From the sequence record PP291582.1: DNA of 44,773 nucleotides; one strand, 5' to 3'. The translations under genes and the position numbers were made by a program. This document shows, piece after piece, positions 5,040 to 42,846 of the stretch (positions are counted from its first letter, which is position 1; every line of letters begins with the position of its first letter). The notes beneath the pieces were generated by a model that did not search any database, was not told where the DNA came from, and saw nothing but the letters and a program-made list of their open reading frames with translations. The DNA is from Escherichia phage vB_EcoS_UTEC10.

Positions 5040-5070
5040 CTTCCATCTCTCCACTCGTCGGTGTAAATGA

Positions 5071-5099
5071 ATAGTAGCCTATTCTATCTTAGTGTGCAA
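5071..5099 (-). promoter_or_regulatory. promoter TTGCAC-N17-TACTAT with embedded AATAG-N4-CTATT inverted repeat
   Basis: Minus-strand reading of 5071-5099; inverted repeat at 5070-5083 lies in the spacer. Confidence 0.5.
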
Positions 5100-6706: not shown

Positions 6707-6740
6707 TTCTGAATTCCTTATGTCTCGTTTCGATAAGTGA

Positions 6741-6769
6741 ATAGTATCCTATTATGTTGGGGTGTGCAA
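6741..6769 (-). promoter_or_regulatory. promoter TTGCAC-N17-TACTAT with embedded AATAG-N4-CTATT inverted repeat
   Basis: Same architecture as the 5071-5099 promoter; inverted repeat at 6740-6753. Confidence 0.5.
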
Positions 6770-7142
6770 GAGAATAGTTACGTTGCCGTTGTGATTCTTC
6801 AGGTAGGGTTGTGCCTTTATTCTTATTACTTGGTAACTAAAGGGCAGGCCCTAAGCCTGCCCAATAATCGTTACATTTTTACGGTTGCGAATCTACGGCA
6901 CTTTAAGAAAATCAGATACTTAAGATATATTCCGCCGATGGGAATAGAGCTTGCCCAGGGCAACCGGAGATACTTAGGAAGGAAAGTTACGATAATTCGA
7001 ATGTTCAGTAAACTGCCGCCTAACACTTCGCGTTGGGCGCTCGTTTTCGGCGGGTTTTACAAGGTGAACAGGAATCAAAGTAACTAAGATATAGAAGCAC
7101 CTTAAACGAAGATTTTCTTAATGTCAATAGGTGCGATTATGT

Positions 7143-10136: not shown

Positions 10137-10166
10137 ATCAATTACTCCTTAGTCAGTTGATATGTG

Positions 10167-10180
10167 AATAGTACCATATT
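10167..10180 (-). promoter_or_regulatory. operator-like half-palindrome overlapping an extended -10 (TGG-TACTAT) for the XRE gene
   Basis: GAATAG-TACC-ATATT imperfect copy of the AATAG-N4-CTATT repeat; TGGTACTAT on the minus strand about 25 nt upstream of the XRE start. Confidence 0.4.
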
Positions 10181-10200
10181 AATTATTTTAGAAAAGCCCA

Positions 10201-10230
10201 TTGACATAATGAATAGTTCGCTATTATAGT
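10201..10230 (+). promoter_or_regulatory. strong sigma70-like promoter TTGACA-N18-TATAGT with embedded AATAG-N4-CTATT repeat
   Basis: Consensus -35; inverted repeat at 10212-10225 in the spacer; drives the acidic-protein gene. Confidence 0.6.
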
Positions 10231-12316: not shown

Positions 12317-12320
12317 AGTG

Positions 12321-12349
12321 TTGACACCTGAATAGTTAGCTATTATAGT
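12321..12349 (+). promoter_or_regulatory. sigma70-like promoter TTGACA-N17-TATAGT with embedded AATAG-N4-CTATT repeat
   Basis: Consensus -35; inverted repeat at 12331-12344. Confidence 0.6.
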
Positions 12350-12402: not shown

Positions 12403-13029
12403 ATGGGTATTAAACTGAATCTGCGTAAAGTAAACACTGCTTGGGTTAACGTATTCGAACGCGAAAAAGACCGTGAAAACGATGATGGCTCCATCACTAA
12501 AGGCCAGTACAGCGCGACTATCATCTTGCCGTCTGACCATGCTCAAATTGATGCGCTCTACGACACAGTTTACGCTGTAGTTGAAGAAGCGTTAGGTGCA
12601 GCCGCTGCCGAGAAGTGGATGAAGTCCAACTACGGCGAAGGTAAGCACATGGATAAATGCGCGATTAAAGACATTGCCGAGCGCGACAATCCGTTTGAAG
12701 ACTTCCCGGAAGGCTTCTACTTCAAGGCGAAGGCACAGAAACAGCCACTGATTGTAACCTCTAAAAAAGGTGAGACTCAGGTAGAGCAGGACTTCAACGT
12801 AGATGGTGAACAGATTGAAGGCGAACAGGTTTACAGCGGATGCGTCGCTAACGTAAGCGTCGAAATCTGGTTCAGCCAGAAATACAAAGTTCTCGGTGTT
12901 AACCTGCTGGCAATTAAATACGTCGGCGAAGGTAAAGCGTTCGGTGGTTCTAAAGTCGCAGCAAGTGTCAATGACCTGGAAGACGACGAAGAAGATGAAG
13001 CACCTCGCCGCGAACGTCGTCGCCGCTAA
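12403..13029 (+). CDS. ssDNA-binding-like protein (DUF2815-type) with acidic/basic C-terminal tail
   Basis: 208 aa; follows the DUF2800 nuclease as in the conserved nuclease / SSB-like / polymerase phage module; C-terminus DLEDDEEDEAPRRERRRR. Confidence 0.55.
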   Translation: MGIKLNLRKVNTAWVNVFEREKDRENDDGSITKGQYSATIILPSDHAQIDALYDTVYAVVEEALGAAAAEKWMKSNYGEGKHMDKCAIKDIAERDNPFEDFPEGFYFKAKAQKQPLIVTSKKGETQVEQDFNVDGEQIEGEQVYSGCVANVSVEIWFSQKYKVLGVNLLAIKYVGEGKAFGGSKVAASVNDLEDDEEDEAPRRERRRR

Positions 13030-13048
13030 CATCTGAATCAATTTAACT

Positions 13049-13072
13049 AAGGCCCTTCATTGGGCCTTTTTA
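13049..13072 (+). terminator. Rho-independent terminator
   Basis: AAGGCCC-TTCATT-GGGCCTT hairpin followed by TTTT. Confidence 0.55.
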
Positions 13073-13085
13073 CTAAGGGTCGAAA

Positions 13086-15810: not shown

Positions 15811-16109
15811 CACCGGAAGGAAAAATACAGAAATACGCAAAAGAGCAATTCGAGGCCATTGGTGGCCTCGTTCGTAAACTTTCCTATGAGGGGCGCTCCG
15901 GCGCTCCCGACCTTCTGGTAATTCTCCCCGGCGGCATCGTCTGGTTCGTCGAGGTGAAGAAAGATGAAAACACGAAGCCAGACCCACACCAGCTACGGGA
16001 ACATGAGCGTATGCGTAAACGTGGTGCAAATGTTTTTGTCGTTGGTTCGTTTAAACAGGTTGACGACCTAATAGCGAACTATTATAGTAGTCATACACCA
16101 ACAATATAA
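15807..16109 (+). CDS. VRR-NUC domain nuclease
   Basis: GAPDLLVILPGGIVWFVEVKKD matches the VRR-NUC PD-(D/E)XK motif; GTG start overlapping the upstream stop. Confidence 0.65.
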   Translation: MTPEGKIQKYAKEQFEAIGGLVRKLSYEGRSGAPDLLVILPGGIVWFVEVKKDENTKPDPHQLREHERMRKRGANVFVVGSFKQVDDLIANYYSSHTPTI

Positions 16110-18921: not shown

Positions 18922-19055
18922 ACATCATAGCCCCGATTCCCGCATTGCAAAAACGTATCAAGGAACTCGAAGAAGAGGTTCTACGACTACGGCAGCAAAG
19001 AGACGCCGCTAATGCGCAACTGGCGTTTGTACTGGAGAAGTTATCAGAAGAGTAG
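18918..19055 (+). CDS. small coiled-coil protein (45 aa)
   Basis: Manually translated (MNIIAPIPALQKRIKELEEEVLRLRQQRDAANAQLAFVLEKLSEE); ATGA overlap with the Toprim gene. Confidence 0.3.
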   Translation: MNIIAPIPALQKRIKELEEEVLRLRQQRDAANAQLAFVLEKLSEE

Positions 19056-19059
19056 AGAA

Positions 19060-19086
19060 AAGGCCCCGTTTGGGGCCTTAGTTTTA
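19060..19086. terminator. bidirectional Rho-independent terminator (AAGGCCCC-GTTT-GGGGCCTT)
   Basis: 8-bp GC stem with T-rich flanks on both strands between the convergent replication and tail operons; overlaps the tailspike stop codon. Confidence 0.65.
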
Positions 19087-20919
19087 AGCTTTTAATCCAT
19101 ATATAATAACTTCAACAGATATAGACGACCATGAAGTGTTGCCTTTTGCAGACGATGCACACAAAGAAAAACTAGCTGCTGTTTTATCCGTAACACTGAA
19201 AACCGGGCAGATGGTTTGCAACTGACTGAATGTGCCTTCGAGCGTAGCTGCAACAGTGTAATTGGTGTTCATATTAAAAGGGAGTGTTACAACTGCCGCA
19301 CCAGCGTCTCCCGAAGTCCTAGATACGGATATAGACCTTCTAATTACAAACTGCCCATTTCGCAACCCAGATAAAGTGAGATCTGTCCATCCGTCAACGA
19401 TATCAGATTCCGTAAATCCAATACCAACTTGGTCGTTGCTAGTAATAAATCGCGTGCCATCATACGTCCTTTTTAAAACTCTTGAATTACTCCCTAAGTA
19501 AAACTCTTTAGACATGGCGCTACGACATGTGACGTTTGTTAAATCAAAATAATTATGGTCAGCAGCATCCAAAATTAATGTATCTACATTTACTGTTCTA
19601 ATATTTTTCAGCACAACTTGTGAATATGATGTATTCGAAGCCATGCTAAGTAATGCAGCTGGCGCGGCGGATAAAGAAGGATCGTTGAACGCGTTATGGT
19701 CTTCTATGCTTAGCGAAACCAAGCCGTCCACGTAGAATACTGAATCTGCACCTGATTGCTCTGAGCCGCACCCTTTCATACTGAACGTAGCTAAATCGGT
19801 TCCTGCAGGGCCGCCTTTAAAGTAATAACCCCAGCGCGTGGTCTTATCACATGCGCAATTTACTATCGACGAATACCCACCGCCTAAATAATACCCTCGC
19901 TCCATCTGGTCCGCATAGCATTCACTGATATTAGTACTCGTCCCAGTCTTCTTGAAAAAACCAGTATCTACAATACTGCGCGCGACACATCGCTCTATCC
20001 GGCATATCCATGATCCAATGTCGTACCATCCAAATGTGAACCCAGTAAAAAAGCAGTCATGGATATAGCTATTCTCGGTTTGCCCAACATAAATAGCATA
20101 TTCAGCACCAACTGGTGATTCGAAACGCAATCCACTAATGCGGCAATACTTACTCTGGTTAGTGTCATTCAGAACTACCATCGCTGCGTTAACGTTAAAA
20201 TCATCGCCAAAGGCATCAGGCGCAGTAATTCCAGTTTTTTCCAGAGAATCCATAATGATTACAGCAGCACCTCCGTGCCCTTCAATCTCATAGTTATAAA
20301 AACCTTGATTGCGATATAGCAATGGCTTGGTGATTCGATAGCGCCGGGATGGAATGACTAGCTTTCTATTGTTAATCTGGCAATAATCCATTGCGGCCTG
20401 TATTGCAACTGAGTCATCTGCAACGCCGTCACCAACAGCGCCAAACATAGCGGGCGTTACCACATCTACCCCTTGCGACACAGTACCACCTTGCGGAAGT
20501 CCGATCATATCGGCACCTTGTGCAGACCCTAACTCCGTACGCAAATCCGGGTCTGTCTGCGGTTTCCAGTTAGCGTTCCCTACCGGGTTAAACGATGCAG
20601 GGACAACAACCGGAAGCGTACCCGCGTATGAGTACCAAGTACGGCTAACCGGGTCGTACACCACTTTGTCGCGGTCGTTAGCCGTGAGAGTGCCGCCGGT
20701 TGAAAAATCCCACGACACGGGAGAAAAGCCAGCGTCACGCAACACGGCCGGGAGGGTCTTCTGTGCCTGACCCGTAACAGCATTGGTCGCGTAATCAATA
20801 TCCGCGCCCCCAGCAACCCCGCCGGATTTACCTGTGATAACCTCGGCTTCGAAAATCTGGTGTTTTTTGGCGATCTGTAAATCCGCCAGGCTTAAAACGT
20901 CACCGCATCCGCTTGACAT
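19084..20919 (-). CDS. tailspike / receptor-binding protein with pectate-lyase-like beta-helix domain
   Basis: 611 aa; VVTPAMFGAVGDGVADDSVAIQAAMDYC is the signature start of pectate-lyase-3-type beta-helix depolymerase domains; last gene of the tail module; AAGAGGA RBS. Confidence 0.7.
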   Translation of the reverse strand: MSSGCGDVLSLADLQIAKKHQIFEAEVITGKSGGVAGGADIDYATNAVTGQAQKTLPAVLRDAGFSPVSWDFSTGGTLTANDRDKVVYDPVSRTWYSYAGTLPVVVPASFNPVGNANWKPQTDPDLRTELGSAQGADMIGLPQGGTVSQGVDVVTPAMFGAVGDGVADDSVAIQAAMDYCQINNRKLVIPSRRYRITKPLLYRNQGFYNYEIEGHGGAAVIIMDSLEKTGITAPDAFGDDFNVNAAMVVLNDTNQSKYCRISGLRFESPVGAEYAIYVGQTENSYIHDCFFTGFTFGWYDIGSWICRIERCVARSIVDTGFFKKTGTSTNISECYADQMERGYYLGGGYSSIVNCACDKTTRWGYYFKGGPAGTDLATFSMKGCGSEQSGADSVFYVDGLVSLSIEDHNAFNDPSLSAAPAALLSMASNTSYSQVVLKNIRTVNVDTLILDAADHNYFDLTNVTCRSAMSKEFYLGSNSRVLKRTYDGTRFITSNDQVGIGFTESDIVDGWTDLTLSGLRNGQFVIRRSISVSRTSGDAGAAVVTLPFNMNTNYTVAATLEGTFSQLQTICPVFSVTDKTAASFSLCASSAKGNTSWSSISVEVIIYGLKA

Positions 20920-24361: not shown

Positions 24362-25750
24362 TTAACCGTCCACATTAAAATCAATACGGGTGATATATTT
24401 ACTACCCCACGCAGAATCAGCCTGCGGGATGATGGCGTAATCGTCAACAGCCGTAACGTTTACCACAGAGCCGTCGGAATAGGTAATGTCGATGCTTGTC
24501 GCGCCGTTCATTACTACTTTTGCTGATGCCGTTGTTCTATCTCCTGCAATAGCTGATGTCTGTATGTAACTGGTAGTATTTGCCGATTTCTCTAACTGCG
24601 CGCCCCATACATAAATGCCATTTCCCCCCGTACCCGCGAATATTGAGGATGTGCCGGATGCGAGCTGCACCCGGATAACAGAGTTTCTAGTTGCGCCCGC
24701 CTGGAAGACCATTGTTACCCGATATGTGTCCTCGGAAACCATAACGGCATTTTTTGATACAAAATTAACTCCTGAGTTCGCGACAAATGCGCCAGTAGCA
24801 GGGTTGAATGTTGCGGTCGCTATGGTGCCCGTTGCCACCCTCAGATAAAGGTTTAGTGGGTTGCTAGTGGCTTTTACAAATATTGAATATGAATACAGCT
24901 CATCTTGCTGCACTCCTATCGTCCTGTCGTTGGCGTAATGCTCAGAATTTGAAGTTGTCGCAGTGATTTCTGCCATAGTTATATCACCACGGGGCGATAC
25001 TTCAGCATTATTCCGCACAAATGTTTGGGGTCCAGTTCCCCATGTTTCCGAATTTATGTACAAATTGCGCGAGGCATCTTCTGGCGGCACCCGCCCAACA
25101 GCTTTACCATCAATAAACGTAAGGGGCCATTCATTGGTGGCGGACGGCACAAGATTGCCGTTGCGGTTGATGTAGTAAACCTGTGGCCCGTCATACACAA
25201 TGCGGCTATCCAGGGCGGACGCCAGAAGGTTAATCGGCGGGTATCCTGCAGGCCCTTCATTGCTCCAGATGCGCGGGAACGTCGTCTCATAGTTAGCGTA
25301 TATTTTCAGGAAACTACCCAGGCAGTCACCATAGCAGCCGTACAAATCTGGCAGATTGTTAATCAGGCACTGGTTCTCAAGGTCCTGGAACGGTGATTTC
25401 TCGGCGGTTGCCGTGAAAGTAATCGTCCAGTTAATGCCGTCTTCGGTGGATTCCGCGATGGTTGACGTGATGGTTACCTGATAATCCTCAATACCCATGC
25501 CGAAGTCGTGCGCCATCCAGAAACTTGACGCACCGCCGTCTACTTTTTCGAGGAACGACAGAAACGCCTGCCGCCCCAGCGCCGATGTAATCAGGGTTAC
25601 GCTTATCGGGAACACGTCGTAATATGTGTCGCGCCCCTGACGCACCCCGCCGCCCGCTAAATCGACACTCCAGACGTTGTTACGTCGGGTCATTGAGTAG
25701 CCTTTCGATACCACCGGCTTAAGGCTACGTGGGAAATATAAGTCGCTCAT
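24362..25750 (-). CDS. distal tail / minor tail protein with C-terminal beta-sandwich-like domain
   Basis: 462 aa immediately downstream of the tape measure gene; C-terminal GIYVWGAQLE-type motif. Confidence 0.5.
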   Translation of the reverse strand: MSDLYFPRSLKPVVSKGYSMTRRNNVWSVDLAGGGVRQGRDTYYDVFPISVTLITSALGRQAFLSFLEKVDGGASSFWMAHDFGMGIEDYQVTITSTIAESTEDGINWTITFTATAEKSPFQDLENQCLINNLPDLYGCYGDCLGSFLKIYANYETTFPRIWSNEGPAGYPPINLLASALDSRIVYDGPQVYYINRNGNLVPSATNEWPLTFIDGKAVGRVPPEDASRNLYINSETWGTGPQTFVRNNAEVSPRGDITMAEITATTSNSEHYANDRTIGVQQDELYSYSIFVKATSNPLNLYLRVATGTIATATFNPATGAFVANSGVNFVSKNAVMVSEDTYRVTMVFQAGATRNSVIRVQLASGTSSIFAGTGGNGIYVWGAQLEKSANTTSYIQTSAIAGDRTTASAKVVMNGATSIDITYSDGSVVNVTAVDDYAIIPQADSAWGSKYITRIDFNVDG

Positions 25751-28446: not shown

Positions 28447-28863
28447 CTACTTTTCCTGCAATTGGTGTAGCTGTTCATTGTGGAAAACAACAACGTGTTC
28501 AGCGAGGCGTTTATATTGTGAGAAAAGGGTATTCAGGTTCTCTTTATTAAATTCATCGTCGAGACTCCAACCGTTAACTAGTTCAAGTGCTAACTGGCGG
28601 TTAAGGTCCGTCGCGGCGTCTTCCATCTTAATATTGTATTCCGAGAAATCTTTCAGTTCCTCGCATTTATCACGAAGCGGTTTCAATTTACCTAATGCCG
28701 CGCGGTACGCAAGTGTAAACGCCCTCATAGCTTTAACAGCAACGTCTGCCTCCGGTGAAACAACGTTAAGCCACTCCCCTGAATCGGTGCCGTCTTTCAG
28801 TGGGATCGGCATACGGGCGCCTTTTTCCGCCTCAGCTTCGTAATAAAAATCGGAAAGTTTCAT
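28447..28863 (-). CDS. tail assembly chaperone (lambda G-like)
   Basis: 138 aa acidic protein immediately upstream of the T-frame ORF and tape measure gene. Confidence 0.5.
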   Translation of the reverse strand: MKLSDFYYEAEAEKGARMPIPLKDGTDSGEWLNVVSPEADVAVKAMRAFTLAYRAALGKLKPLRDKCEELKDFSEYNIKMEDAATDLNRQLALELVNGWSLDDEFNKENLNTLFSQYKRLAEHVVVFHNEQLHQLQEK

Positions 28864-28970
28864 TCTTTAATCCTTTGGTTAAGAGGTTACTGGTTAAGGT
28901 GAATGCGCCAGGCGGGAACCACCCGCTTTTCGTGTGCGACACTAGGCGCAAACTTATTCTAGCACACTAC

Positions 28971-28999
28971 TTGCAGGCCCCAATATAATAGGGTACTAT
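28971..28999 (+). promoter_or_regulatory. cassette promoter TTGCAG-N17-TACTAT with embedded TATAAT and AATAG-GGTA-CTATT repeat
   Basis: CCAATATAATAGGGTACTATTCA is repeated near-identically at 38644-38668 and 40816-40840. Confidence 0.55.
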
Positions 29000-29029
29000 T
29001 CACTTACACCAACAATGGAGGAATTTAAA

Positions 29030-29221
29030 ATGTCAAGTTTACCAGTTTCATTAATTCTGTTTGCACTTCTCGCCTATTTCGCGCCTTTCCTGGTTGCATA
29101 CTTCCGTAATCATAAAGCGAAGTTGGCAATATTCATGGCCAATCTGTTTCTTGGTTGGATTCTGTTGCCGTGGGTATTCATTTTAATCTGGGCTTGCAAC
29201 TCGAACGTGAAAGAGAAGTAA
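29030..29221 (+). CDS. small two-TM membrane protein, superinfection-immunity (Imm)-like
   Basis: Internal ATG with GGAGGAA RBS; 63 aa; NLFLGWILLPWVFILIWA resembles the conserved motif of small superinfection-immunity proteins. Confidence 0.5.
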   Translation: MSSLPVSLILFALLAYFAPFLVAYFRNHKAKLAIFMANLFLGWILLPWVFILIWACNSNVKEK

Positions 29222-29258
29222 GCTACTATAAGACAAATCCTAAGCACGAGGAATAAGC

Positions 29259-30389
29259 ATGGCCCGGAAGAAAATAACCGACGAACAGTTGCAGGAAGAA
29301 TTGAACGCCGGGATGAAGAATATCGATATAGCTCGTAAATACGGCATCTCCGACCGCGTTATTCGTATCCGTAAAGCGAAGCTGGCAAAGAAAGGCGTAG
29401 GCCACGGGCGCGACGTTAGTCACCTTGTACCAGACGGCTACAAGATTAAAGGAACGTCGTCGCTTGTGGACGAGTTCGGCAACACTAAGCTGCAATGGGT
29501 TAAGACCGACACCGATGCCGAACGTCAGGTCGAGTTAATGAAGGCCGTAATCGAGGGCATGAAGTCGGAGATTACCCCCGTTGCTCCTGTTAAAGCCGTT
29601 CGCACCAAACGAGACGACAAGCTACTCAACCTTTACACTGTGTCTGATTTCCATCTCGGTATGCTGGCATGGGCCGACGAGAGCGGCGATGACTGGGATA
29701 TGAAGATTGCAGAAGACCTGTTCTCTCGGTGGTTTGATGCTGCGTTTCAGAAAGCGCCAGATGCGGGAACAGGGGTTATTAACCTTCTTGGTGACTTCGC
29801 GCACTTTGATAGTCTGGATGCCGTTACGCCAGCGAGTGGTCATGTTCTTGACGCGGATACGCGCTATCAGAAACTGGTCCGCTACATGATTCGTATGGTC
29901 CGCCGTGTTGTCGATATGGCTCTGGTTAAACATAAAAATGTTCGCCTGCTTATCGTGCAAGGGAACCATGACGAATCAGGTATGATTTGGTTGGCTGAGA
30001 TGTTCAGTACGCTATACGACAACGAGCCTCGTGTGTTCGTCGATACGTCGCCGGATGTTTACAAGATGGTGCAACACGGCAAAACGACGCTGTTCTTCCA
30101 CCACGGGCATAAAGCACGCTTCGATGCTATCGAACCGGTTATGATTGCCAAGTTCCGCAAAGCGTTCGGTGAGAGCGTTTATAGCTACGCCCACGTGGGC
30201 CACCTGCACCATCAGAAGATTGTAGAAAGCCGTAACATGATTGTTGAGCAACACCGCACCTTAGCGGCTAAAGATGCTTACGCCTCTCGCGGCGGGTGGA
30301 TGTCGGGCCGTAGTGCAAACGTAATTACTTATAGCGCCGAATACGGCGAGGTCGCACGTTTAACTATTTCACCGGAGATGCTGGGATGA
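29259..30389 (+). CDS. HTH domain fused to calcineurin-like metallophosphoesterase
   Basis: N-terminus NIDIARKYGISDRVIRIRKAKL (HTH); C-terminal motifs DFHLG, GDFAHFD, GNHDE, HHGH, GHLHH match the DxH / GD / GNH[DE] / H / GHxH set. Confidence 0.7.
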   Translation: MARKKITDEQLQEELNAGMKNIDIARKYGISDRVIRIRKAKLAKKGVGHGRDVSHLVPDGYKIKGTSSLVDEFGNTKLQWVKTDTDAERQVELMKAVIEGMKSEITPVAPVKAVRTKRDDKLLNLYTVSDFHLGMLAWADESGDDWDMKIAEDLFSRWFDAAFQKAPDAGTGVINLLGDFAHFDSLDAVTPASGHVLDADTRYQKLVRYMIRMVRRVVDMALVKHKNVRLLIVQGNHDESGMIWLAEMFSTLYDNEPRVFVDTSPDVYKMVQHGKTTLFFHHGHKARFDAIEPVMIAKFRKAFGESVYSYAHVGHLHHQKIVESRNMIVEQHRTLAAKDAYASRGGWMSGRSANVITYSAEYGEVARLTISPEMLG

Positions 30390-30871
30390 AAAGTATTGTG
30401 ATTTTCGATTTAGATGGGACATTGGCTGATGGTACGCATCGTTTGCACCTGCTGCCGAAAGATAACTACAACGAAACGTGGGCGTGGAAGCCCTTTAACA
30501 TGGCGTGCAAAGATGATGAACCAATTAGAGATAACATCGAACTGTGTAACGCCCTCAATCGTCGCTACGCCGTTATTATTTTAACGGGCCGTAGTGATGA
30601 TGCAGAAAAAGAAACCAGAATGTGGTTGCAGCGCCACCGCGTCGAATTTTATCAGCTAATCATGCGCGGCAAACACGACAACAGAAAAGACATCGCAATT
30701 AAAGAAGAGGTGTTGCGTGCTATCGGGCTGGAGAGAATCTTGTGTGCATTCGATGATTCTCCGGCGGTAATTAAGCATTTCCGAGGCCTCGGCATAACCA
30801 CACACGCTGTCACTGAATACGACTGTAACGGTAACTCTACACACTTAAAATCACACGGGAGTGATAAATAA
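30386..30871 (+). CDS. HAD-family phosphatase (T4 Pnk phosphatase-domain-like)
   Basis: VIFDLDGTLADG is HAD motif I (DxDGT); later TGR and D-containing motifs; ATGA overlap with the upstream gene. Confidence 0.7.
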   Translation: MKSIVIFDLDGTLADGTHRLHLLPKDNYNETWAWKPFNMACKDDEPIRDNIELCNALNRRYAVIILTGRSDDAEKETRMWLQRHRVEFYQLIMRGKHDNRKDIAIKEEVLRAIGLERILCAFDDSPAVIKHFRGLGITTHAVTEYDCNGNSTHLKSHGSDK

Positions 30872-31425
30872 TGGCTAAGGTAATTATTCTTAATGGCCCT
30901 GCGGGTTGCGGGAAAGACACGCTTGCTAGGGAGCTGGTAGAAATGGGCTTTGCAAAAGGAACTACCAGTTTCAAGAATCCGATGTTCAATATTGCGCTGG
31001 CGGCGTTAGGCCCCGATACTTACCACGAGTTTCTCGACGGCTACGACGACCGGGCGCGGAAAGAAAAGCCGGAAGGCTTCCTTAACGGGTTGTCTCGGCG
31101 TCAGTTCATGATTGCCATTTCTGAGCAATTCATTAAACCGGTATTCGGTGACGATTATTTCGGTAAATATCTCGCTGAAAACTTGCCTGACGGCGACGAA
31201 GTTTTTGTAGTGTCCGACGGTGGATTCGCCAGTGAAGTGGTCCCTATCGTCGCCGCAGGGCATGACGTAAGAATTGTTCGCTTACACAGAGACGGCTATA
31301 CGTTCATCGGCGATAGCCGGGAGTATCTGTATGATGTTAGTGGCGTAAAAGATTACGACATCTACATCATACCGGGTGACGTTAAATCCAACGTCATAGA
31401 CATTGCTCTAAAATTAGGTTTGTAA
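30871..31425 (+). CDS. P-loop kinase (T4 gp1 dNMP-kinase-like, or polynucleotide-kinase-like)
   Basis: Walker A GPAGCGKDT near the N-terminus; overall layout resembles T4 gp1 (SGKDT Walker A, RLHRDG region). Confidence 0.65.
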   Translation: MAKVIILNGPAGCGKDTLARELVEMGFAKGTTSFKNPMFNIALAALGPDTYHEFLDGYDDRARKEKPEGFLNGLSRRQFMIAISEQFIKPVFGDDYFGKYLAENLPDGDEVFVVSDGGFASEVVPIVAAGHDVRIVRLHRDGYTFIGDSREYLYDVSGVKDYDIYIIPGDVKSNVIDIALKLGL

Positions 31426-31429
31426 GAAA

Positions 31430-31455
31430 AAGGCCCCGAAAGGGGCCTTAGTTTT
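31430..31455. terminator. bidirectional Rho-independent terminator (AAGGCCCC-GAAA-GGGGCCTT)
   Basis: Same stem and AGTTTTA flank as the 19060-19086 terminator; overlaps the major tail gene stop. Confidence 0.65.
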
Positions 31456-32620
31456 ATGCGTAGGTGATACGCTGGATAACAATAGACGACTGGTACTGGT
31501 TGCCAGTAGCCTGGCCCTCAATGGACTGAGTGATTGACTCAGGCCCGCCAATCTCTGGCGTAACCGCCGTAAGTTCCGCACGTTTCAGGCTGAAAGACAT
31601 AGCCCCGTTTACCCCCGCCAGAATAGAGTTAATCTCTACCTGCTGTTCGTTGATAAACTTCTGAATCATCGCCATGTCGTACAGCTTACCGGAGATGGAG
31701 AAGGTGTTAGCCGCGCGGCTACGCTCCACAAACGCTACGTTAGTGTTGCCGAGTTCGAACTGCGCCGACGCGCTGTTATCGTTGGTGATGGTCAGGCTAT
31801 CACAACGCAACGGCGTAGAACCGTCGAACACAGAAACGTCAACCGAGGAGAACGGCTCATCACCAAAAGTAACAGATGAGAAGTTGGAACCGGTCGGCGG
31901 CGTAGTGAGAATCTCCTGACTGCGACCGATGAATGGGAAGCTGCCAGTTACCATCGCGTTAACAGCCTGTTCGATGGTAAAACCAGAAACTTCCACGCCT
32001 TTGGTTAACGTGTACGCGTCAGTACCGCCGCACTGGCCTTTGTACCAGGTAAGGATAGAGAACGTCTTACACGTGTTACCGGTTTCCAGCGTGTCGCCGG
32101 TTTTAGCCTTACTAGTTTTTGTCTCGGTGGTCAGGGTGTGTTGGATGCCCGCACCAGTAACAACCGTAGCCGTTACTGCAGTAACAATAAATGGTTTTGC
32201 GTTATCGCCTGTTAAATCGGTAAATGCAATCAGGTCGCCTACCCCAACTCCGTCAGTGATAAAACTGCCGGTAGCGCGTGTGAACGTCTTGCCCGCCGGT
32301 GCGACCGTAATCGACAGACTGGACAGGGAAACACCGGATTGCCACGTAGAGCCTAAAGCACCAGCCAGCCAGTCATCCTGGCTTTTCGAGCTAAGCTCGA
32401 TCGCGTATTCGCCGCTAACCTGTTTGTTACCGGTGCGGATGGATGTAGTTTCACGGCTGCCGTCCAGTTCGTTGGAGGTCAGCGTGTCGCGGGTAATAGC
32501 AGGAACACCGCCTGTGTTGCGCAACGGCGACCATACCGGGTTAGCTGGTGTTACGCCCGGGGTGACTTCCGCCACATAGAATTGCGCGGTATTCGCGCCC
32601 TTAAAAGGAGTTGTAGCCAT
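31454..32620 (-). CDS. major tail (tube) protein
   Basis: About 388 aa Thr/Ser/Gly-rich protein downstream of the tail terminator gene; ATG at 32620 with AAGAGG RBS. Confidence 0.65.
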   Translation of the reverse strand: MATTPFKGANTAQFYVAEVTPGVTPANPVWSPLRNTGGVPAITRDTLTSNELDGSRETTSIRTGNKQVSGEYAIELSSKSQDDWLAGALGSTWQSGVSLSSLSITVAPAGKTFTRATGSFITDGVGVGDLIAFTDLTGDNAKPFIVTAVTATVVTGAGIQHTLTTETKTSKAKTGDTLETGNTCKTFSILTWYKGQCGGTDAYTLTKGVEVSGFTIEQAVNAMVTGSFPFIGRSQEILTTPPTGSNFSSVTFGDEPFSSVDVSVFDGSTPLRCDSLTITNDNSASAQFELGNTNVAFVERSRAANTFSISGKLYDMAMIQKFINEQQVEINSILAGVNGAMSFSLKRAELTAVTPEIGGPESITQSIEGQATGNQYQSSIVIQRITYA

Positions 32621-38636: not shown

Positions 38637-38665
38637 TTGCGGACACCAATATAATAGGGTACTAT
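38637..38665 (+). promoter_or_regulatory. cassette promoter TTGCGG-N17-TACTAT with embedded AATAG-GGTA-CTATT repeat
   Basis: Near-identical to the promoters at 28971 and 40809. Confidence 0.55.
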
Positions 38666-38691: not shown

Positions 38692-39231
38692 ATGCTCACT
38701 AAACGTTCAGAAGCCATAGCCGCTGGTGATGATTATTACTTCACGGGAAAACCGTGTAAACGTGGGCATGTTGCGAAAAGGCATGTCCGCACCGGGTGCT
38801 ATGAGTGCGCTAAAGAGATACAAAAATCGTACCGAGAACGCAACGTTGTTTCTTGGGCGGCGAAAAACGCAAAATGGAGGCAAGAAAATAGAGACCGAAT
38901 AGCCGAAATTGACGCAGAGTACCGTAAGAAAAACAAAACCGCCAGGAAAGCCCAAAGGCTAAAGTATAAAACGGCAAAAAGAGCCAGGAGTATAAACATC
39001 AGGAATGATGAATTTGACCTATTAGTATTCGAAGAAGCGCAGGAGCTATGTCAACTACGAGCGGGCGAAACAGGTTTCGTATGGCATATCGACCACATGC
39101 TGCCGCTGCGTGCTAAAACTGTCTCGGGGCTGCATGTCGCAGAAAACATACAAGTTATCCCCGCGGTTCTGAATCTCTTAAAAGGTAATAAATTAATTTT
39201 CACCGAGAGAGGCTCTTGGTTGTCTTCCTGA
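38692..39231 (+). CDS. HNH endonuclease (free-standing)
   Basis: Internal ATG with GAGGAGGG RBS; GDDYYFTGKPCKRGH zinc-binding N-terminus and HIDHMLPLRAK...N HNH motif. Confidence 0.75.
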   Translation: MLTKRSEAIAAGDDYYFTGKPCKRGHVAKRHVRTGCYECAKEIQKSYRERNVVSWAAKNAKWRQENRDRIAEIDAEYRKKNKTARKAQRLKYKTAKRARSINIRNDEFDLLVFEEAQELCQLRAGETGFVWHIDHMLPLRAKTVSGLHVAENIQVIPAVLNLLKGNKLIFTERGSWLSS

Positions 39232-39236
39232 AATTG

Positions 39237-39259
39237 AGGCCCCTTAATGGGGCCTTTTA
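39237..39259 (+). terminator. Rho-independent terminator (AGGCCCC-TTAAT-GGGGCCT)
   Basis: GC stem followed by TTTTAT. Confidence 0.55.
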
Positions 39260-39721
39260 TCATTCTGGCTTAGTAACCTTCGCCGCTTTACTCACAGCCT
39301 CTACTCCATCAGCATCGGTAACTTTAACGAAGTATTCACCGACAGCATTAACTGTCAGAGACAAAGCCTCTTCCGGGGCGTTTACCACTTCCTTACCGTC
39401 TTTGTACCAGGTCAGCGCATACGGCGCTTTGCCCGCCTTAACTTCAACAGTAAGAGTCGCGCTGCCGTCTACCAATTCGGTGTCTTTCGGTTGTACAGAG
39501 AAATACACATCACCAGCGTCCGCCAGATACGGAATCTCGTAAAGCATACCAGCCGCCGGAAGCGCAATACCGGTTTTATCTGCAAACGGCATATCGTCTA
39601 CAGGTGTACCCAGTACACTTTCGTCCTCAATAAATACCACGTTCTCGCCAGAGCCAGACACGCGGGTGTACTGGACAACACGACGCGACGGTACATCAGT
39701 TACTTTGAAAAAGCCCATCAT
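39260..39721 (-). CDS. Ig-like (BIG2-type) domain virion protein
   Basis: C-terminal YALTWYKDGKEV...GEYFVKVTDADG Ig-like pattern; downstream of head morphogenesis gene. Confidence 0.5.
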   Translation of the reverse strand: MMGFFKVTDVPSRRVVQYTRVSGSGENVVFIEDESVLGTPVDDMPFADKTGIALPAAGMLYEIPYLADAGDVYFSVQPKDTELVDGSATLTVEVKAGKAPYALTWYKDGKEVVNAPEEALSLTVNAVGEYFVKVTDADGVEAVSKAAKVTKPE

Positions 39722-40808: not shown

Positions 40809-40837
40809 TTGCAGACACCAATATAATAGGGTACTAT
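40809..40837 (+). promoter_or_regulatory. cassette promoter TTGCAG-N17-TACTAT with embedded AATAG-GGTA-CTATT repeat
   Basis: Third copy of CACCAATATAATAGGGTACTATTCA. Confidence 0.55.
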
Positions 40838-41026: not shown

Positions 41027-41348
41027 GAATCACTTGAAGGTCTACGGACCCAAGGGGTTGCATTCATGGAACGGCGGGTATGACGTAAACGATGACCTGC
41101 CAATACGTAAAATAGCGCGCGCGGCGAGACGCAATGTAGAGCCTGGCGACGTGCTAGTTATACGAGATAATAATGTCATTGTTGAAGTTGAGAAAGTTCT
41201 TGGTGTGTTTCTCATAGTAATACCTGTTGATGTTGTTTTGCGTGACGCAAGGCCTTACCGAGAAGCTGGGAGCGGTAAAACTGGTAAATACACATACGGC
41301 AGGATTAAGATACATAAAACACATCTTGATAAATTTAAGGCCCCGTGA
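41004..41348 (+). CDS. hypothetical protein
   Basis: Internal ATG of track ORF 40983..41348 (MSLRNNLKNHL...); stop codon lies in the terminator loop. Confidence 0.45.
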   Translation: MSLRNNLKNHLKVYGPKGLHSWNGGYDVNDDLPIRKIARAARRNVEPGDVLVIRDNNVIVEVEKVLGVFLIVIPVDVVLRDARPYREAGSGKTGKYTYGRIKIHKTHLDKFKAP

Positions 41349-41356
41349 GGGGCCTT
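41337..41356 (+). terminator. Rho-independent terminator (AAGGCCCC-GTGA-GGGGCCTT)
   Basis: Same stem as the terminators at 19060 and 31430. Confidence 0.6.
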
Positions 41357-41358
41357 TC

Positions 41359-42846
41359 TTATTGCTGCGGATTCTGTTGGTCTTGCGGGTTAGCCGACTG
41401 CGGAATCTCCCCCGCCACCTGAGTAACCGCGCCCATCGGCAACGGTGCATCCTCGATAGCGTTCTGAATATCCTCATCCGTCCAGTCAGTTACCCCAGCT
41501 TTACGCAATGCCGCGTAGTAAGCGGTAGCTGGTAGCAGGCCTGCGTTAATATCCGCCATCCACTGAGCACGGTCCTGAGCGGTCATCGGTTGCAGGAAGA
41601 ACTCCATGTTCAGTTTGAACTCAACCTCTGTGTCCTCACGCAACCCTAGCATCGCAGCCACCCAGCGCAACGCATCGGTGTACGCCATGCTTACGTTACG
41701 TGCGATTGTCGCCATAACGGATGTATCCGCTCCACGTTGCAGGCGGGCCGATTCCGCGGTGATTTGCTGCGTCGGGGTGATAAGCTGCGCGCCAATCTGG
41801 ATTGCCTGATTCTCTTTATCCAGCATGTTCTGTTTGGCGAGGTTGTTCTCTCCCGCCTGAACCAGAAACGCATTGCCGCCGTAGCCAATGTTATGGCCTG
41901 AGCGCGACCCCATGCGCACGCCGTGAGGGTTGGCTTCTTTCCATTGCTCCATGCTCATGTTTTCACCAGGGGCGATGAACAGAGTTGGCTGGCCTACAAC
42001 AAAGCTGGACTCCTCATTGTCCGCGCTGTTGCGGAAATGCCCGATATTAAGTTCAGCCAACGGCAACAAAGGGGCATCGTCGATGGTTGCGTCGTTGTTG
42101 CTCGCTCCAATGAACGTGAAGGGGATTTTGCCGCGTAACTGTTCGCCAAGTTCCGGGAAGATTTCGATTACTTCACCCTGTGCACCACCTTCTGCATCGA
42201 AGCGATAGATTCGCTGGCGGTAGTGACCGTCAATAAGGTCAAGGACGCGGTATTGCTCACCGAACTTTGTCTCAAATTCCGCGCCGGGTTCTGAGTATTC
42301 CCATACTTCTCGCAACACAACCATTGTCACACGGTTAACTGAACCTACGCGAGTCAGTCGCCAGTTGATGATGTTCTCTGCGGTATAGAATGCGATGACC
42401 GGGTTTAATAAGCCCGCATTCTGTTCTGCCGCCGTCGCCGCGGCTGTCTCCGGGGCGTCCACCAGCAACCCGCCACGGCCTACTGAGTCAATCTCCATCA
42501 GCGTATCCTGCGCGTGCTGCCACAGCCCGACACCAGAACCGTCGGCGTTACGTAATAGGTACTCAAGCTCAGGCGGGATAATCTGCTCGGGGTCTTTGCG
42601 CATCACGGACCCGACCATCCCCGCCAGCGTTCTCTTGGTGAAGTTGTAGCAGATAGCGCCGTTCTCGTATTCTTCCTGGCGCTGTGCTGCATATTTAGGG
42701 TCCGGCTCGTTCTTCCCGACGTTGCGCAGATAGCGAATAAGGTCGCCTTCCAGCGCGTGGCGTACCTTCTGCCATTTATCGAAGTGATGCAGCCATTCCC
42801 GGTGTTTTGTCTTAACACCCTGATTCTGACCGTTCATAGTTAACAT
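41359..42846 (-). CDS. portal protein
   Basis: 495 aa immediately downstream of TerL; AAGAGGA RBS. Confidence 0.7.
   Translation of the reverse strand: MLTMNGQNQGVKTKHREWLHHFDKWQKVRHALEGDLIRYLRNVGKNEPDPKYAAQRQEEYENGAICYNFTKRTLAGMVGSVMRKDPEQIIPPELEYLLRNADGSGVGLWQHAQDTLMEIDSVGRGGLLVDAPETAAATAAEQNAGLLNPVIAFYTAENIINWRLTRVGSVNRVTMVVLREVWEYSEPGAEFETKFGEQYRVLDLIDGHYRQRIYRFDAEGGAQGEVIEIFPELGEQLRGKIPFTFIGASNNDATIDDAPLLPLAELNIGHFRNSADNEESSFVVGQPTLFIAPGENMSMEQWKEANPHGVRMGSRSGHNIGYGGNAFLVQAGENNLAKQNMLDKENQAIQIGAQLITPTQQITAESARLQRGADTSVMATIARNVSMAYTDALRWVAAMLGLREDTEVEFKLNMEFFLQPMTAQDRAQWMADINAGLLPATAYYAALRKAGVTDWTDEDIQNAIEDAPLPMGAVTQVAGEIPQSANPQDQQNPQQ

What the first reader, a model, noticed from the sequence alone, without database searches (positions are those of the whole stretch)
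19056..19086. Repeated GGCCCC-stem terminator family, two copies nearly identical over about 31 bp
19056-19086 (GAGAAAAGGCCCCGTTTGGGGCCTTAGTTTTA) and 31426-31456 (AGAAAAAGGCCCCGAAAGGGGCCTTAGTTTTA) share stem and flanks and both overlap the TAA stop of a minus-strand gene (tailspike, major tail). Related stems occur at 39237-39259 and 41337-41356. Such repeats mark the boundaries of convergent transcription units and are plausible recombination sites.
Basis: seen in the sequence. Interest (0 to 1): 0.45.

Follow-up and report, generated by a model that had tools for sequence, protein, structure and literature searches.

The report
Repeated two-way phage transcription terminators
The repeated GGCCCC hairpins are ordinary two-way transcription stop signals between genes that face each other in a Kagunavirus-type coliphage; relatives already have them annotated, and they also mark where gene modules, including the host-recognition tailspike, have been swapped between phages.

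Summary
The window is a complete-looking Kagunavirus-like (Guernseyvirinae) phage genome. It carries AAGGCCCC-N4-GGGGCCTT at 19060-19079, 31430-31449 and 41337-41356, against 0 expected in shuffles.

Sites 1 and 2 match at 28 of 32 positions. Three of the four differences are in the loop.

Four of the five sites fill the 25-28 nt between the stop codons of converging genes. All fold stably on both strands and carry T-runs on both strands.

Orthologous positions in about 80 related genomes keep a hairpin through compensatory stem changes. Homologous sites are already annotated as rho-independent terminators in SETP3, fBC-Eco01 and Sciku. The best reading is therefore bidirectional intrinsic terminators, which is a known kind of element.

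The recombination idea is also supported, by comparison only. Sequence identity among relatives switches between near-random and 80-100% within about 10 nt of the hairpins. At least 17 unrelated tailspike ends abut the same TAAAACTAAGGCCCC. One relative is a hybrid joined inside the hairpin. The same unit follows tailspike genes in unrelated phage families, which fits the proposal of Pas et al. 2023.

No 3' end or recombination data exist for this lineage. Interest is low.

The parts
19053..19086 (.). Site 1. A 34-nt stop-to-stop unit. It starts with the TAG stop of the plus-strand 45-aa ORF (19053-19055). The stem is 19060-19067 paired with 19072-19079 (AAGGCCCC/GGGGCCTT), and the loop is GTTT (19068-19071). 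It ends with the TAA stop of the minus-strand tailspike gene (19084-19086). It separates the end of the replication module from the end of the tail module.
   Evidence: The orthologous unit is conserved next to at least 17 unrelated tailspike C-termini.
31423..31456 (.). Site 2. A 34-nt stop-to-stop unit. It starts with the TAA stop of the plus-strand dNMP-kinase-like gene (31423-31425). The stem is 31430-31437 paired with 31442-31449, and the loop is GAAA. It ends with the TAA stop of the minus-strand major tail (tube) gene (31454-31456). It is the terminator end of island A.
   Evidence: Orthologues are annotated as terminators in SETP3 and fBC-Eco01.
39229..39262 (.). Site 3. It starts with the TGA stop of the plus-strand HNH/endonuclease VII-like gene (39229-39231). 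The stem is 39236-39243 paired with 39249-39256 (GAGGCCCC/GGGGCCTT, with a G-T outer pair), and the loop is TTAAT. It ends with the TGA stop of the minus-strand Hoc-like gene (39260-39262). It is the terminator end of island B.
41337..41361. Site 4. The stem is 41337-41344 paired with 41349-41356, and the loop is GTGA. The loop contains the TGA stop (41346-41348) of the plus-strand 121-aa ORF, which therefore ends ...KFKAP. The TAA stop of the minus-strand portal gene is at 41359-41361. It is the terminator end of island C.
13045..13075 (+). Site 5. It reads AACTAAGGCCC-TTCATT-GGGCCTTTTTAC. It is the same family with the flanks in inverted orientation and a 7-bp stem. It lies after the plus-strand Gp2.5-like SSB gene and before the DNA polymerase gene. 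It is co-directional, with the strong T-run on the plus strand.
   Evidence: 2 mismatches; pairs I5, I8.
28971..28999 (+). Promoter-like site of island A (TTGCAG-N17-TACTAT). It lies 16 nt upstream of the ATG at 29015 of the superinfection-immunity gene. Island A spans 29015-31425.
   Evidence: (family D2). The homologous site is annotated as a promoter in fBC-Eco01 and SETP3.
38637..38665 (+). Promoter-like site of island B (TTGCGG-N17-TACTAT). It lies upstream of the ATG at 38693. Island B spans 38693-39231.
   Evidence: (family D2). The whole island (38623-39261) is absent from several relatives.
40809..40837 (+). Promoter-like site of island C (TTGCAG-N17-TACTAT). It lies upstream of the ATG at 40865. 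Island C spans 40865-41348.
   Evidence: (family D2).

Best explanation
The GGCCC(C) hairpins are intrinsic (Rho-independent) terminators read by the host RNA polymerase. Sites 1-4 work in both directions.

Mechanism. Each site is a 6-bp G-C core extended by two A-T pairs, with a 4-5 nt loop. It fills almost the whole 25-28 nt between the stop codons of two genes that converge on it. Transcribed from either strand, the RNA folds into the same hairpin followed by a U-rich tail, because the A-rich 5' flank on one strand is the U-rich 3' flank on the other. This releases the transcript and stops each unit from running antisense into its neighbour.

Polarity, inferred from tail quality.
- At sites 1 and 2 the better tail faces the late, minus-strand genes. 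These sites end or attenuate late transcription after the tailspike and after the major tail gene.
- At sites 3 and 4 the better tail faces the plus-strand islands. The islands are closed off, while late transcription after the portal and Hoc-like genes can leak through.

Architecture. Three of the hairpins are the 3' ends of small plus-strand accessory units (islands A, B and C). Each island starts with the same conserved promoter-like site and lies antisense within the late operon.

Second, evolutionary role (inferred, not shown). The hairpin and its 5-10 nt flanks are the only sequence conserved between otherwise unrelated neighbouring genes. They may serve as short homology at which accessory cassettes and tailspike receptor-binding modules are exchanged between co-infecting phages.
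For: Structure. All five sites fold on both strands, -12.9 to -21.6 kcal/mol in 51-nt windows (z -2.0 to -4.5). The GC core alone gives -9.4 to -13.3 kcal/mol.

Tails. T-tail scores for the plus and minus strands are: site 1, 2.67 and 3.77; site 2, 2.74 and 4.29; site 3, 3.72 and 1.37; site 4, 3.61 and 2.21; site 5, 3.89 and 2.32.

Position. The stops of converging genes lie 2-7 nt from the stems. In 305 distinct hairpin contexts from relatives, 235 have an ORF of at least 60 codons whose stop lies within 12 nt of the GC core.

Conservation of structure. 88-89% of distinct 45-mers after the major-tail and Hoc-like stops fold at -12 kcal/mol or better. The figure is 16-17% for control windows from the same loci. 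Stems differ by compensatory changes, for example GGCCCC/GGGGCC, GGGGCC/GGCCCC, GGGCC/GGCCC, GCCCCC/GGGGGC and GCCCCA/TGGGGC. 97.6% of cells are paired, 6 of 8 pairs show double changes, and 0 of 500 shuffles reach the observed value.

Prior annotation. Homologous sites are annotated as rho-independent terminators in SETP3, after the major tail gene and after the tailspike. In fBC-Eco01 they are annotated on both strands, and Sciku also carries annotations.

Islands. The order hairpin, antisense genes, promoter recurs in most Kagunavirus-like loci.

Exchange.
- At the tailspike junction, identity is 0.27 up to position -10 and 0.74-1.0 from TAAAACTAA onward.
- At the major-tail and Hoc junctions, identity is 0.8-0.9 on the gene side and falls to about 0.35 within 10 nt past the stem.
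- The ORFs that converge on the three junctions fall into 56 sequence clusters, some probably spurious, and two clusters occur at two different junctions.
- Locus L012 is a Kagunavirus backbone carrying a Jerseyvirus-type Ant cassette, and homology to the window ends at the stem.
- The unit follows tailspike or tail-fibre genes in a P22-like prophage, a Gamaleyavirus, an Agtrevirus and phage Bas77, whose loci are otherwise unrelated to the window.
- The phage encodes an exonuclease and a Gp2.5-like annealing protein (SETP3 homologue annotation).
Against: - No transcript 3' ends have been mapped. The one RNA-seq study of a Guernseyvirinae phage does not mention terminators.
- Site 1 fails the simple scan's T-run criterion.
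- The plus-strand tails of sites 1 and 2 are interrupted (UUAGUUUU). The minus-strand tails of sites 3 and 4 are poor. Termination in the weaker direction may therefore be inefficient, or may depend on polymerase collisions.
- Stops lie so close to the stems that a terminating ribosome could interfere with folding.
- For the exchange role: the hairpin is essentially the only intergenic DNA, so any gene replacement must break near it, whether or not it promotes recombination.
- Presence or absence of island B is bounded by the Hoc-like gene's stop codon and by a point beyond the promoter, not by a shared hairpin.
- The exchange of the receptor-binding domain with Kuttervirus ECML-4 ends inside the gene, not in the terminator.
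- The covariation alignment was anchored on loops predicted by RNAfold, which favours pairing.
Confidence: 0.85

Rival explanations
1. Terminators only. The similarity of the copies and their position at mosaic boundaries are by-products. On this reading the family looks alike because of common descent and strong selection for one optimal design: a stop codon, an A-run, a GGCCCC stem and a T-run. Breakpoints fall there only because the hairpin is the only non-coding DNA between tightly packed genes.
For: The intergenic spacers are only 25-28 nt and are almost entirely hairpin. 77% of hairpin contexts have a stop within 12 nt. The island B indel and the ECML-4 exchange have joints outside the hairpin. 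Both sites 1 and 2 are conserved in nearly all Kagunavirus-like genomes, so their likeness is old and not a recent conversion.
Against: Unpaired flank bases with no obvious role in termination are conserved at paralogous sites and in unrelated phage families, for example the CT in AAAACTAAGG. L012 combines two half-units that otherwise occur in different genera. A 50-nt block consisting of the stop, the hairpin and 22 nt of the neighbouring Kagunavirus ORF follows an unrelated tailspike gene in an E. coli prophage. The exact unit is essentially absent from 5,426 E. coli genomes, so it is not a generic host-optimal terminator.
Confidence: 0.35
2. A DNA-level protein-binding palindrome. On this reading the inverted repeat is recognised as duplex DNA by a phage regulator, or is the target of a homing (HNH) endonuclease whose gene sits next to it, rather than acting as an RNA hairpin.
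For: The sites are perfect 8-bp inverted repeats. Island B, next to site 3, encodes an HNH/endonuclease VII-like protein. Accessory genes next to the hairpins come and go.
Against: Orthologous sites keep pairing while the sequence changes, for example GGCCCC to GGGGCC, GGGCC or GCCCCC. That fits a structure and not a fixed recognition sequence. Loop length and sequence vary freely. T-runs and stop codons are always attached. Most neighbouring genes are not nucleases.
Confidence: 0.05
3. A mobile or host-type repeated palindromic element (REP- or MITE-like) that has spread within the genome.
For: There are five copies in 45 kb with shared flanks. Related genomes carry two or three copies of the strict motif.
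Against: Only 1 of 5,426 complete E. coli genomes has it, inside a prophage. Copies are fixed at the same orthologous gene ends across the subfamily. There are no target-site duplications or terminal repeats. The elements are 20 nt long and always lie at gene 3' ends.
Confidence: 0.03
4. 3' stabilisers or processing sites rather than terminators. On this reading polymerase reads through, and the hairpins only protect processed 3' ends from exonucleases.
For: The U-tracts are weak or interrupted in one direction at each site. The late operon must somehow continue past sites 3 and 4.
Against: In the other direction each site has a canonical hairpin followed by 4-5 consecutive U. The sites are predicted as terminators by ARNold in relatives. 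The two roles are not exclusive.
Confidence: 0.07

Closest known systems
Bidirectional intrinsic terminators between convergent genes in E. coli. Established by SEnd-seq work, cited here from my own knowledge. The collision model is in Wang, Watters, Ju and Liu, bioRxiv 10.1101/2022.10.23.513370.
   Same: One symmetric GC-rich stem-loop lies between two converging genes. An A-run on one side and a T-run on the other give both transcripts a hairpin plus a U-tail. The intergenic distance is very short.
   Different: Nothing has been measured here. One direction at each site has a clearly weaker tail. The phage copies share flanks and embedded stop codons to a degree that is not required for that class.
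Annotated rho-independent terminators of Guernseyvirinae phages. Examples are SETP3 NC_009232.2 at 12706-12729 and 24448-24484, fBC-Eco01 OM272052.1 and Sciku MK931439.1.
   Same: The orthologous positions are the same (after the major tail gene and after the tailspike gene). The GGCCCC stem is the same, and the flanks are the same or mirrored.
   Different: In SETP3 the flanks are in the opposite orientation relative to the genes: TAAAACTAAGG belongs to the Ant gene, not to the tail gene. Loops are often the reverse complement.
'Motif three' of Pas et al. 2023 (PMC10408124). This is a 20-nt conserved, terminator-like motif 0-19 nt downstream of tailspike genes, proposed as a recombination hotspot for swapping receptor-binding domains.
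   Same: Site 1 lies directly after the tailspike stop. The same unit follows tailspike genes of a Gamaleyavirus and an Agtrevirus. It bounds the variable receptor-binding region exactly.
   Different: The paper did not report motif three for Kagunavirus or for the prophages it examined. Its sequence is only in figure images, so identity with this hairpin could not be checked. Here the same family also bounds non-tailspike cassettes.
PeSLs (promoter-early stem-loops) of T4-type phages. See Arbiol et al. 2010 (PMC2839356) and Comeau et al. 2014 (PMC4122927).
   Same: Conserved promoter and terminator motifs are repeated in one genome. They flank variable non-essential genes, and indels and replacements between relatives are bounded by them.
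   Different: A PeSL is one small composite unit, with the stem-loop next to the promoter. Here the promoter and the hairpin sit at opposite ends of each island. The islands lie antisense inside a structural operon of a siphovirus. No mini-circles or functional tests exist.
Morons of lambdoid phages: autonomous promoter-gene-terminator units inserted between conserved genes. Cited from my own knowledge (Juhala et al. 2000).
   Same: Islands A-C are self-contained units, each with its own promoter-like site and terminator. They are inserted between conserved late genes and carry accessory functions, for example a superinfection immunity protein.
   Different: The islands are antisense to the surrounding operon. 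They share one promoter type and one terminator type within and across genomes.

Membership tests
Intrinsic (Rho-independent) terminator | GC-rich stem-loop with a stem of about 5-14 bp and a loop of 3-8 nt | tested here: met
   Stems are 7-8 bp with 5-6 G-C pairs, and loops are 4-6 nt. Core energies are -9.4 to -13.3 kcal/mol. Context folds have z-scores of -2.0 to -4.5.
Intrinsic (Rho-independent) terminator | U-rich tract immediately 3' of the stem | tested here: met
   Each site has a run of 3-5 consecutive T directly after the GC core on at least one strand. Counted from the core, 4-7 of the first 8 bases are T. Site 1 fails the stricter tool criterion, which counts the A-T pairs as stem.
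Intrinsic (Rho-independent) terminator | Located at the 3' end of a gene or transcription unit | tested here: met
   Stops lie 2-7 nt from the stems of sites 1-4, or in the loop for the plus-strand ORF at site 4, and 19 nt before the stem of site 5. The stop lies within 12 nt of the core in 235 of 305 contexts in relatives.
Intrinsic (Rho-independent) terminator | Structure conserved through compensatory changes at orthologous sites | tested here: met
   97.6% of cells are paired and 6 of 8 pairs show double changes. The caveat is that the alignment was anchored on predicted loops.
Intrinsic (Rho-independent) terminator | Transcript 3' ends or termination activity demonstrated | not testable with these tools
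   No Term-seq-type data were found for this phage group.
Bidirectional terminator of convergent genes | Sits between two converging genes | tested here: met
   Sites 1-4 meet this: primase-region ORF against tailspike, dNMP-kinase-like gene against major tail, HNH-like gene against Hoc-like gene, and the 121-aa ORF against portal. Site 5 does not, as it lies between co-directional genes.
Bidirectional terminator of convergent genes | Hairpin followed by a U-tract on both strands (an A-run mirrored by a T-run) | tested here: inconclusive
   Both strands have T-rich tails at sites 1 and 2 (scores 2.7 and 3.8-4.3). The weaker strand is interrupted (TTAGTTTT). The minus-strand tails of sites 3 and 4 are poor, at 1.4 and 2.2.
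Bidirectional terminator of convergent genes | Overlapping or abutting 3' ends of both transcripts in vivo | not testable with these tools
   This needs strand-specific 3' end mapping.
PeSL-type mobile regulatory cassette (T4-type phages) | Composite unit with the terminator stem-loop directly next to a strong promoter | tested here: not met
   The promoter-like sites (28971-28999, 38637-38665, 40809-40837) lie 0.5-2.4 kb from their hairpins, at the other end of each island.
PeSL-type mobile regulatory cassette (T4-type phages) | Repeated copies flank variable genes, and indels or replacements between relatives are bounded by them | tested here: met
   The hairpin-to-promoter intervals hold different genes and range from about 220 to 2,800 nt in different genomes. 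Identity drops within 10 nt of the stem. The L012 replacement is bounded by the hairpin. The island B indel is not.
PeSL-type mobile regulatory cassette (T4-type phages) | Recombination between copies shown physically (mini-circles) | not testable with these tools
   This needs PCR or sequencing of infected-cell DNA.
Conserved tailspike-downstream motif ('motif three', Pas et al. 2023) | Starts 0-19 nt after the stop of the receptor-binding protein gene and is predicted to be a terminator | tested here: met
   The site 1 unit begins at the tailspike stop. The same holds in 21 distinct Kagunavirus-like junctions.
Conserved tailspike-downstream motif ('motif three', Pas et al. 2023) | The same 20-nt sequence is shared across phage genera | tested here: inconclusive
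   The unit occurs after tailspike or tail-fibre genes in Gamaleyavirus nithesis, Agtrevirus SKML-39, phage Bas77 and a P22-like prophage. The published motif sequence exists only as an image and could not be compared.
REP/MITE-like repeated palindromic element | Many dispersed copies in host or phage genomes at non-orthologous sites | tested here: not met
   Only 1 of 5,426 E. coli genomes carries it. The phage copies are at fixed orthologous gene ends.

The most novel reading that the evidence does not exclude
The GGCCCC hairpin unit, with its embedded stop codons, works together with the conserved island promoter as a portable linker system, functionally like the PeSLs of T4-type phages. 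It would supply about 20-35 nt of homology. Guernseyvirinae siphoviruses would use that homology to swap accessory cassettes among themselves. For the copy after the tailspike gene, they would use it to swap receptor-binding modules with unrelated phage families: Schitoviridae, Ackermannviridae and P22-like prophages. This would extend the 'motif three' idea of Pas et al. to Kagunavirus and to non-tailspike cassettes.
Probability: 0.4. Interest if true: 0.4.

Novelty: already known. Interest (0 to 1): 0.2.

Why it matters
As terminators, these sites matter only for routine annotation. They define the transcription units of a phage type that is used in therapy and biocontrol. They also show that three accessory islands are insulated, antisense units inside the late operon.

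The modest added value is evolutionary and practical. The hairpins mark, to within about 10 nt, where tailspike receptor-binding modules and accessory genes have been replaced in nature, and the same unit recurs after tailspike genes of unrelated phages. If the hairpin does act as the downstream homology for such swaps, it is a ready-made junction for engineering the host range of Kagunavirus-type phages. It would also be a useful marker for predicting module boundaries.

Tried and rejected
- Rfam at gathering thresholds, and at E-value thresholds around two regions, found no family for the hairpins. It gave only an unrelated int-alpA hit and a chance match to a terminator-like stem.
- No tRNAs were found.
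- The simple terminator scan missed site 1. Overall it did not find more terminator-like sites than in shuffles, so it cannot serve as evidence on its own.
- Fetching loci with the primase-like protein returned only 9. The tail protein next to the tailspike was used instead.
- My first script to read tailspike ends printed nothing, because its coverage cut-off was too strict. The corrected script still mis-picked short ORFs in many loci, so only loci with a full-length tailspike ORF were used.
- Kuttervirus ECML-4 shares the receptor-binding domain of the window's tailspike but has a different hairpin in a different position. That exchange therefore did not use the terminator.
- The supplements of Pas et al. 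hold motif three only as images.
- A recent duplication or conversion within this genome was rejected as the cause of the site 1 and site 2 likeness. Both copies are conserved at their own positions, each with a characteristic loop, across Kagunavirus-like genomes.
- A host-derived terminator was rejected.
- The published RNA-seq study of a related phage contains no 3' end information.
Full report
**What the window is.** A 3-kb query around the finding is 97% identical to Escherichia phage M01. It is 90-96% identical, over the parts that match, to many Kagunavirus genomes of the subfamily Guernseyvirinae. The window (44,773 nt) has the size and gene content of a complete genome of that type. 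It holds no tRNA genes, and Rfam finds only one family at gathering score, elsewhere in the window.

**Check of the observation.** The sequences are present as described.
- AAGGCCCC-N4-GGGGCCTT occurs exactly at 19060-19079, 31430-31449 and 41337-41356. With two mismatches it also occurs at 13049-13068. None is expected in 100 dinucleotide-preserving shuffles.
- A variant with a 5-nt loop lies at 39236-39256.
- The self-comparison groups 19058-19089, 31428-31459 (28 of 32 identical) and 41335-41366 as one direct-repeat family. It pairs 13045-13075 with sites 1 and 2 as inverted copies.
- In register, sites 1 and 2 differ only in three loop bases between 19058 and 19086 (26 of 29). The whole unit, from the plus-strand stop codon to the minus-strand stop codon, is 34 nt at both sites, with 28 positions identical.
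- There are two small corrections. The minus-strand TAA lies 5-7 nt beyond the stem, in the shared flank, and not in the stem.

**Anatomy and context.** Gene assignments come from ORF lists and PHROG and Pfam scans.

| Site | Stem coordinates | Plus-strand gene | Minus-strand gene |
|---|---|---|---|
| 1 | 19060-19079 | last ORF of the replication module (45 aa, after a primase-like gene) | tailspike |
| 2 | 31430-31449 | dNMP-kinase-like gene | major tail (tube) gene |
| 3 | 39236-39256 | HNH/endonuclease VII-like gene | Hoc-like head gene |
| 4 | 41337-41356 | 121-aa ORF | portal gene |
| 5 | 13049-13068 | Gp2.5-like SSB gene upstream, DNA polymerase gene downstream | none (co-directional) |

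Sites 1-4 are therefore at convergent junctions with only 25-28 nt between the stops. At site 4 the stop of the plus-strand ORF lies in the loop.

The plus-strand genes at sites 2-4 form three short islands lying antisense inside the late, minus-strand structural operon.
- Island A spans 29015-31425. It encodes a superinfection immunity protein, a metallophosphatase-like protein, a HAD phosphatase and a kinase-like protein.
- Island B spans 38693-39231.
- Island C spans 40865-41348.
- Each island begins with the same promoter-like site, TTGCRG-N17-TACTAT (28971-28999, 38637-38665 and 40809-40837). This site belongs to a 53-nt repeat family (family D2).
- The homologous promoter and terminators are annotated in fBC-Eco01 and SETP3.

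**Do they look like terminators?**
- All five sites fold into the expected hairpin on both strands. Energies are -12.9 to -21.6 kcal/mol in 51-nt windows, with z-scores of -2.0 to -4.5 against shuffles.
- I scored the T-rich tails after the GC core with a d'Aubenton-Carafa-type weighting, using the formula from memory, so only the relative values matter. Plus and minus scores are 2.67 and 3.77 at site 1, 2.74 and 4.29 at site 2, 3.72 and 1.37 at site 3, 3.61 and 2.21 at site 4, and 3.89 and 2.32 at site 5.
- Sites 1 and 2 therefore point their better tail at the late genes (tailspike and major tail). Sites 3 and 4 point it at the islands. This would let late transcription continue past the portal and Hoc-like genes while closing off the islands.
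- That polarity is an inference from sequence. The simple scan called sites 2-4 but not site 1.

**Comparative evidence for a selected structure.** I fetched 80 loci from IMG/VR with the major tail protein (65-99% amino-acid identity).
- The sequence directly after the stop is a GC-rich hairpin in nearly all of them. The same holds after the Hoc-like gene, and less consistently after the portal gene.
- 88%, 89% and 71% of distinct 45-mers after the major-tail, Hoc-like and portal stops fold at -12 kcal/mol or better. For random 45-mers from the same loci the figures are 16%, 17% and 14%.
- Stems differ by compensatory changes: GGCCCC/GGGGCC, GGGGCC/GGCCCC, GGGCC/GGCCC, GGGGC/GCCCC, GCCCCC/GGGGGC and GCCCCA/TGGGGC.
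- On 31 distinct 4-nt-loop hairpins, 97.6% of cells pair and 6 of 8 pairs show changes on both sides. No shuffle out of 500 reaches the observed pairing or covariation. The caveat is that these sequences were anchored on predicted loops.
- In 305 distinct hairpin contexts, 235 have an ORF of at least 60 codons whose stop lies within 12 nt of the GC core.

**Prior knowledge.**
- The orthologous sites are annotated as rho-independent terminators in the SETP3 RefSeq record, after the major tail gene and after the tailspike gene.
- In fBC-Eco01 they are annotated on both strands, and Sciku also carries annotations.
- The genome papers for Golestan and fBC-Eco01 list 13 and 23 predicted rho-independent terminators.
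- Bidirectional termination at a stem-loop between convergent genes is an established mechanism in E. coli.
- As a kind of element, and even as these particular sites, this is already known.

**Why the copies are so alike, and the recombination idea.** The strict motif AAAACTAAGGCCCC-N4-GGGGCCTT is found in IMG/VR in 80 listed stretches on 55 contigs. Of these contigs, 44 are 38-46 kb long and 23 carry two or three copies. Only 1 of 5,426 complete E. coli genomes has it, inside a prophage. It is therefore a phage-lineage motif and not a host terminator. Several observations tie it to module exchange.

1. Tailspike junction. Twenty-one distinct Kagunavirus-like sequences have at least 17 unrelated tailspike C-termini, from proteins of 585-984 aa. 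Mean pairwise identity is 0.27 up to 10 nt before the GC core. It then jumps to 0.74-1.0 from TAAAACTAA onward and stays at 0.83-1.0 for 100 nt.
2. Major-tail and Hoc junctions. The picture is mirrored: identity is 0.8-0.9 on the gene side and falls to about 0.35 within 10 nt past the stem. The ORFs that converge on the three junctions fall into 56 sequence clusters, some probably spurious. Two clusters occur at two different junctions.
3. Half-units travel with genes. In Kagunaviruses the tail gene ends TAAAACTAAGG and the island gene ends TAAGAAAAAGG. In Jerseyviruses it is the other way round. Locus L012 has a Kagunavirus backbone carrying a Jerseyvirus-type Ant cassette. Its homology to the window stops at the stem, and the resulting unit is the symmetric TAAAACTAAGGCCCCGAAAGGGGCCTTAGTTTTA.
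4. Loop flips. Loops at orthologous sites are often exact reverse complements: 17 TTTC against 8 GAAA, and 15 AAAC against 4 GTTT. This suggests DNA-level events within the inverted repeat.
5. Other phage families. The unit follows tailspike or tail-fibre genes in loci that are otherwise unrelated to the window. These include a P22-like E. coli prophage, where 50 nt including 22 nt of the neighbouring Kagunavirus ORF are 88-92% identical. They also include Gamaleyavirus nithesis and Agtrevirus SKML-39, phage Bas77 and a 73-kb IMG/VR contig.

This matches the proposal of Pas et al. 2023 that a conserved terminator-like motif downstream of tailspike genes acts as a recombination hotspot. Their motif was not reported for Kagunavirus, and its sequence could not be compared.

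**Limits of that inference.**
- The hairpin is nearly the only intergenic DNA, so replacements must break near it whatever the mechanism.
- The presence or absence of island B (window 38623-39261, replaced by 39 nt with a different hairpin in several relatives) is not bounded by a shared hairpin.
- The exchange of the receptor-binding domain with Kuttervirus ECML-4 ends inside the gene.
- I therefore rate the terminator function as very likely. The active role in recombination is plausible but unproven.

**Comparison with known systems.**
- The sites work like bidirectional intrinsic terminators. They meet every sequence-level criterion for intrinsic terminators that could be tested. In vivo 3' ends could not be tested.
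- The island architecture resembles morons.
- Functionally it also resembles the PeSL cassettes of T4-type phages. It fails the defining PeSL feature of a composite promoter and stem-loop unit, so it should not be filed as a PeSL.

**Verdict.** The element is an ordinary, already annotated class of phage terminator. Its one mildly interesting aspect is its role as a marker, and possibly a mediator, of module exchange. Interest is 0.2.

Noticed in passing
window 5062-5084, 6729-6770, 10159-10181, 10201-10230, 12320-12349, 16059-16088, 28950-29006, 38616-38668, 40788-40840: A promoter-like repeat family containing the palindrome AATAG-N4-CTATT. One register reads TTGACA-N17-TATAGT and lies in front of replication genes. 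Another reads TTGCRG-N17-TACTAT and lies in front of the three antisense islands. A copy on the opposite strand at 6734-6770 faces the leftward early genes. It matches the 'phage promoter' consensus tgAATAGTa-ccTATTat-T reported for fBC-Eco01. The palindrome suggests an operator for a phage regulator.
   Followed up: partly
window 28888-28952 (minus strand): A match to Rfam int-alpA RNA (RF02996): 36.4 bits against a gathering score of 35.8, covering the full model. It lies in the 5' untranslated region of the tail assembly chaperone gene (28447-28863, minus strand), just after island A on the late strand. It could be a structured leader for restarting or regulating late tail-gene expression.
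   Followed up: partly
window 38342-38625: A non-coding stretch of about 260 nt lies between the island B promoter and the next late gene (37931-38317, minus strand). It contains a perfect 16-bp palindrome, AACTATTCGAATAGTT, at 38569-38584. It also contains a strong minus-strand hairpin with a T-run (38342-38361) directly in front of that gene's ribosome-binding site. This looks like a leader plus terminator ahead of late genes, which could mean antitermination control. The region is conserved in relatives that lack island B.
   Followed up: no
window 40983-41348; also loci L020, L066, L135 and others: Unrelated ORFs read into the 5' arm of the hairpin and end with the same residues...K(K/T)KAP, with the stop codon in the loop. 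There are 10 such cases among 305 distinct hairpin contexts. This suggests that different genes have been joined to one constant hairpin.
   Followed up: partly
orthologues of window 19068-19071 and 31438-31441 in L004-L119: Loops of orthologous hairpins in close relatives are frequently exact reverse complements (GAAA/TTTC, AAAC/GTTT), that is, small loop inversions. Two relatives (L004, L014) carry the site-1-type loop GTTT at the major-tail site, which may reflect conversion between the paralogous copies.
   Followed up: partly
window 19097-20445: The receptor-binding part of the tailspike gene is 81% identical in DNA to a tail fibre gene of the 157-kb Kuttervirus ECML-4. This is a cross-family transfer of the domain. 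Most Kagunavirus relatives match only the N-terminal anchor part of the gene.
   Followed up: partly
window 3789-3900 and 4070-4181: A 112-nt direct repeat (79% identity, 281 nt apart) within the block of small leftward early ORFs, which probably reflects a duplicated small gene (family D1).
   Followed up: no
L122 7484-7509 (IMG/VR contig 3300000553_000395, 21 kb): An AT-rich contig with no detectable similarity to the window carries the exact TAAAACTAAGGCCCCGAAAGGGGCCTT directly after a 340-aa ORF with a DGQHR-like motif. The explanation is either transfer of the terminator unit or striking convergence.
   Followed up: no
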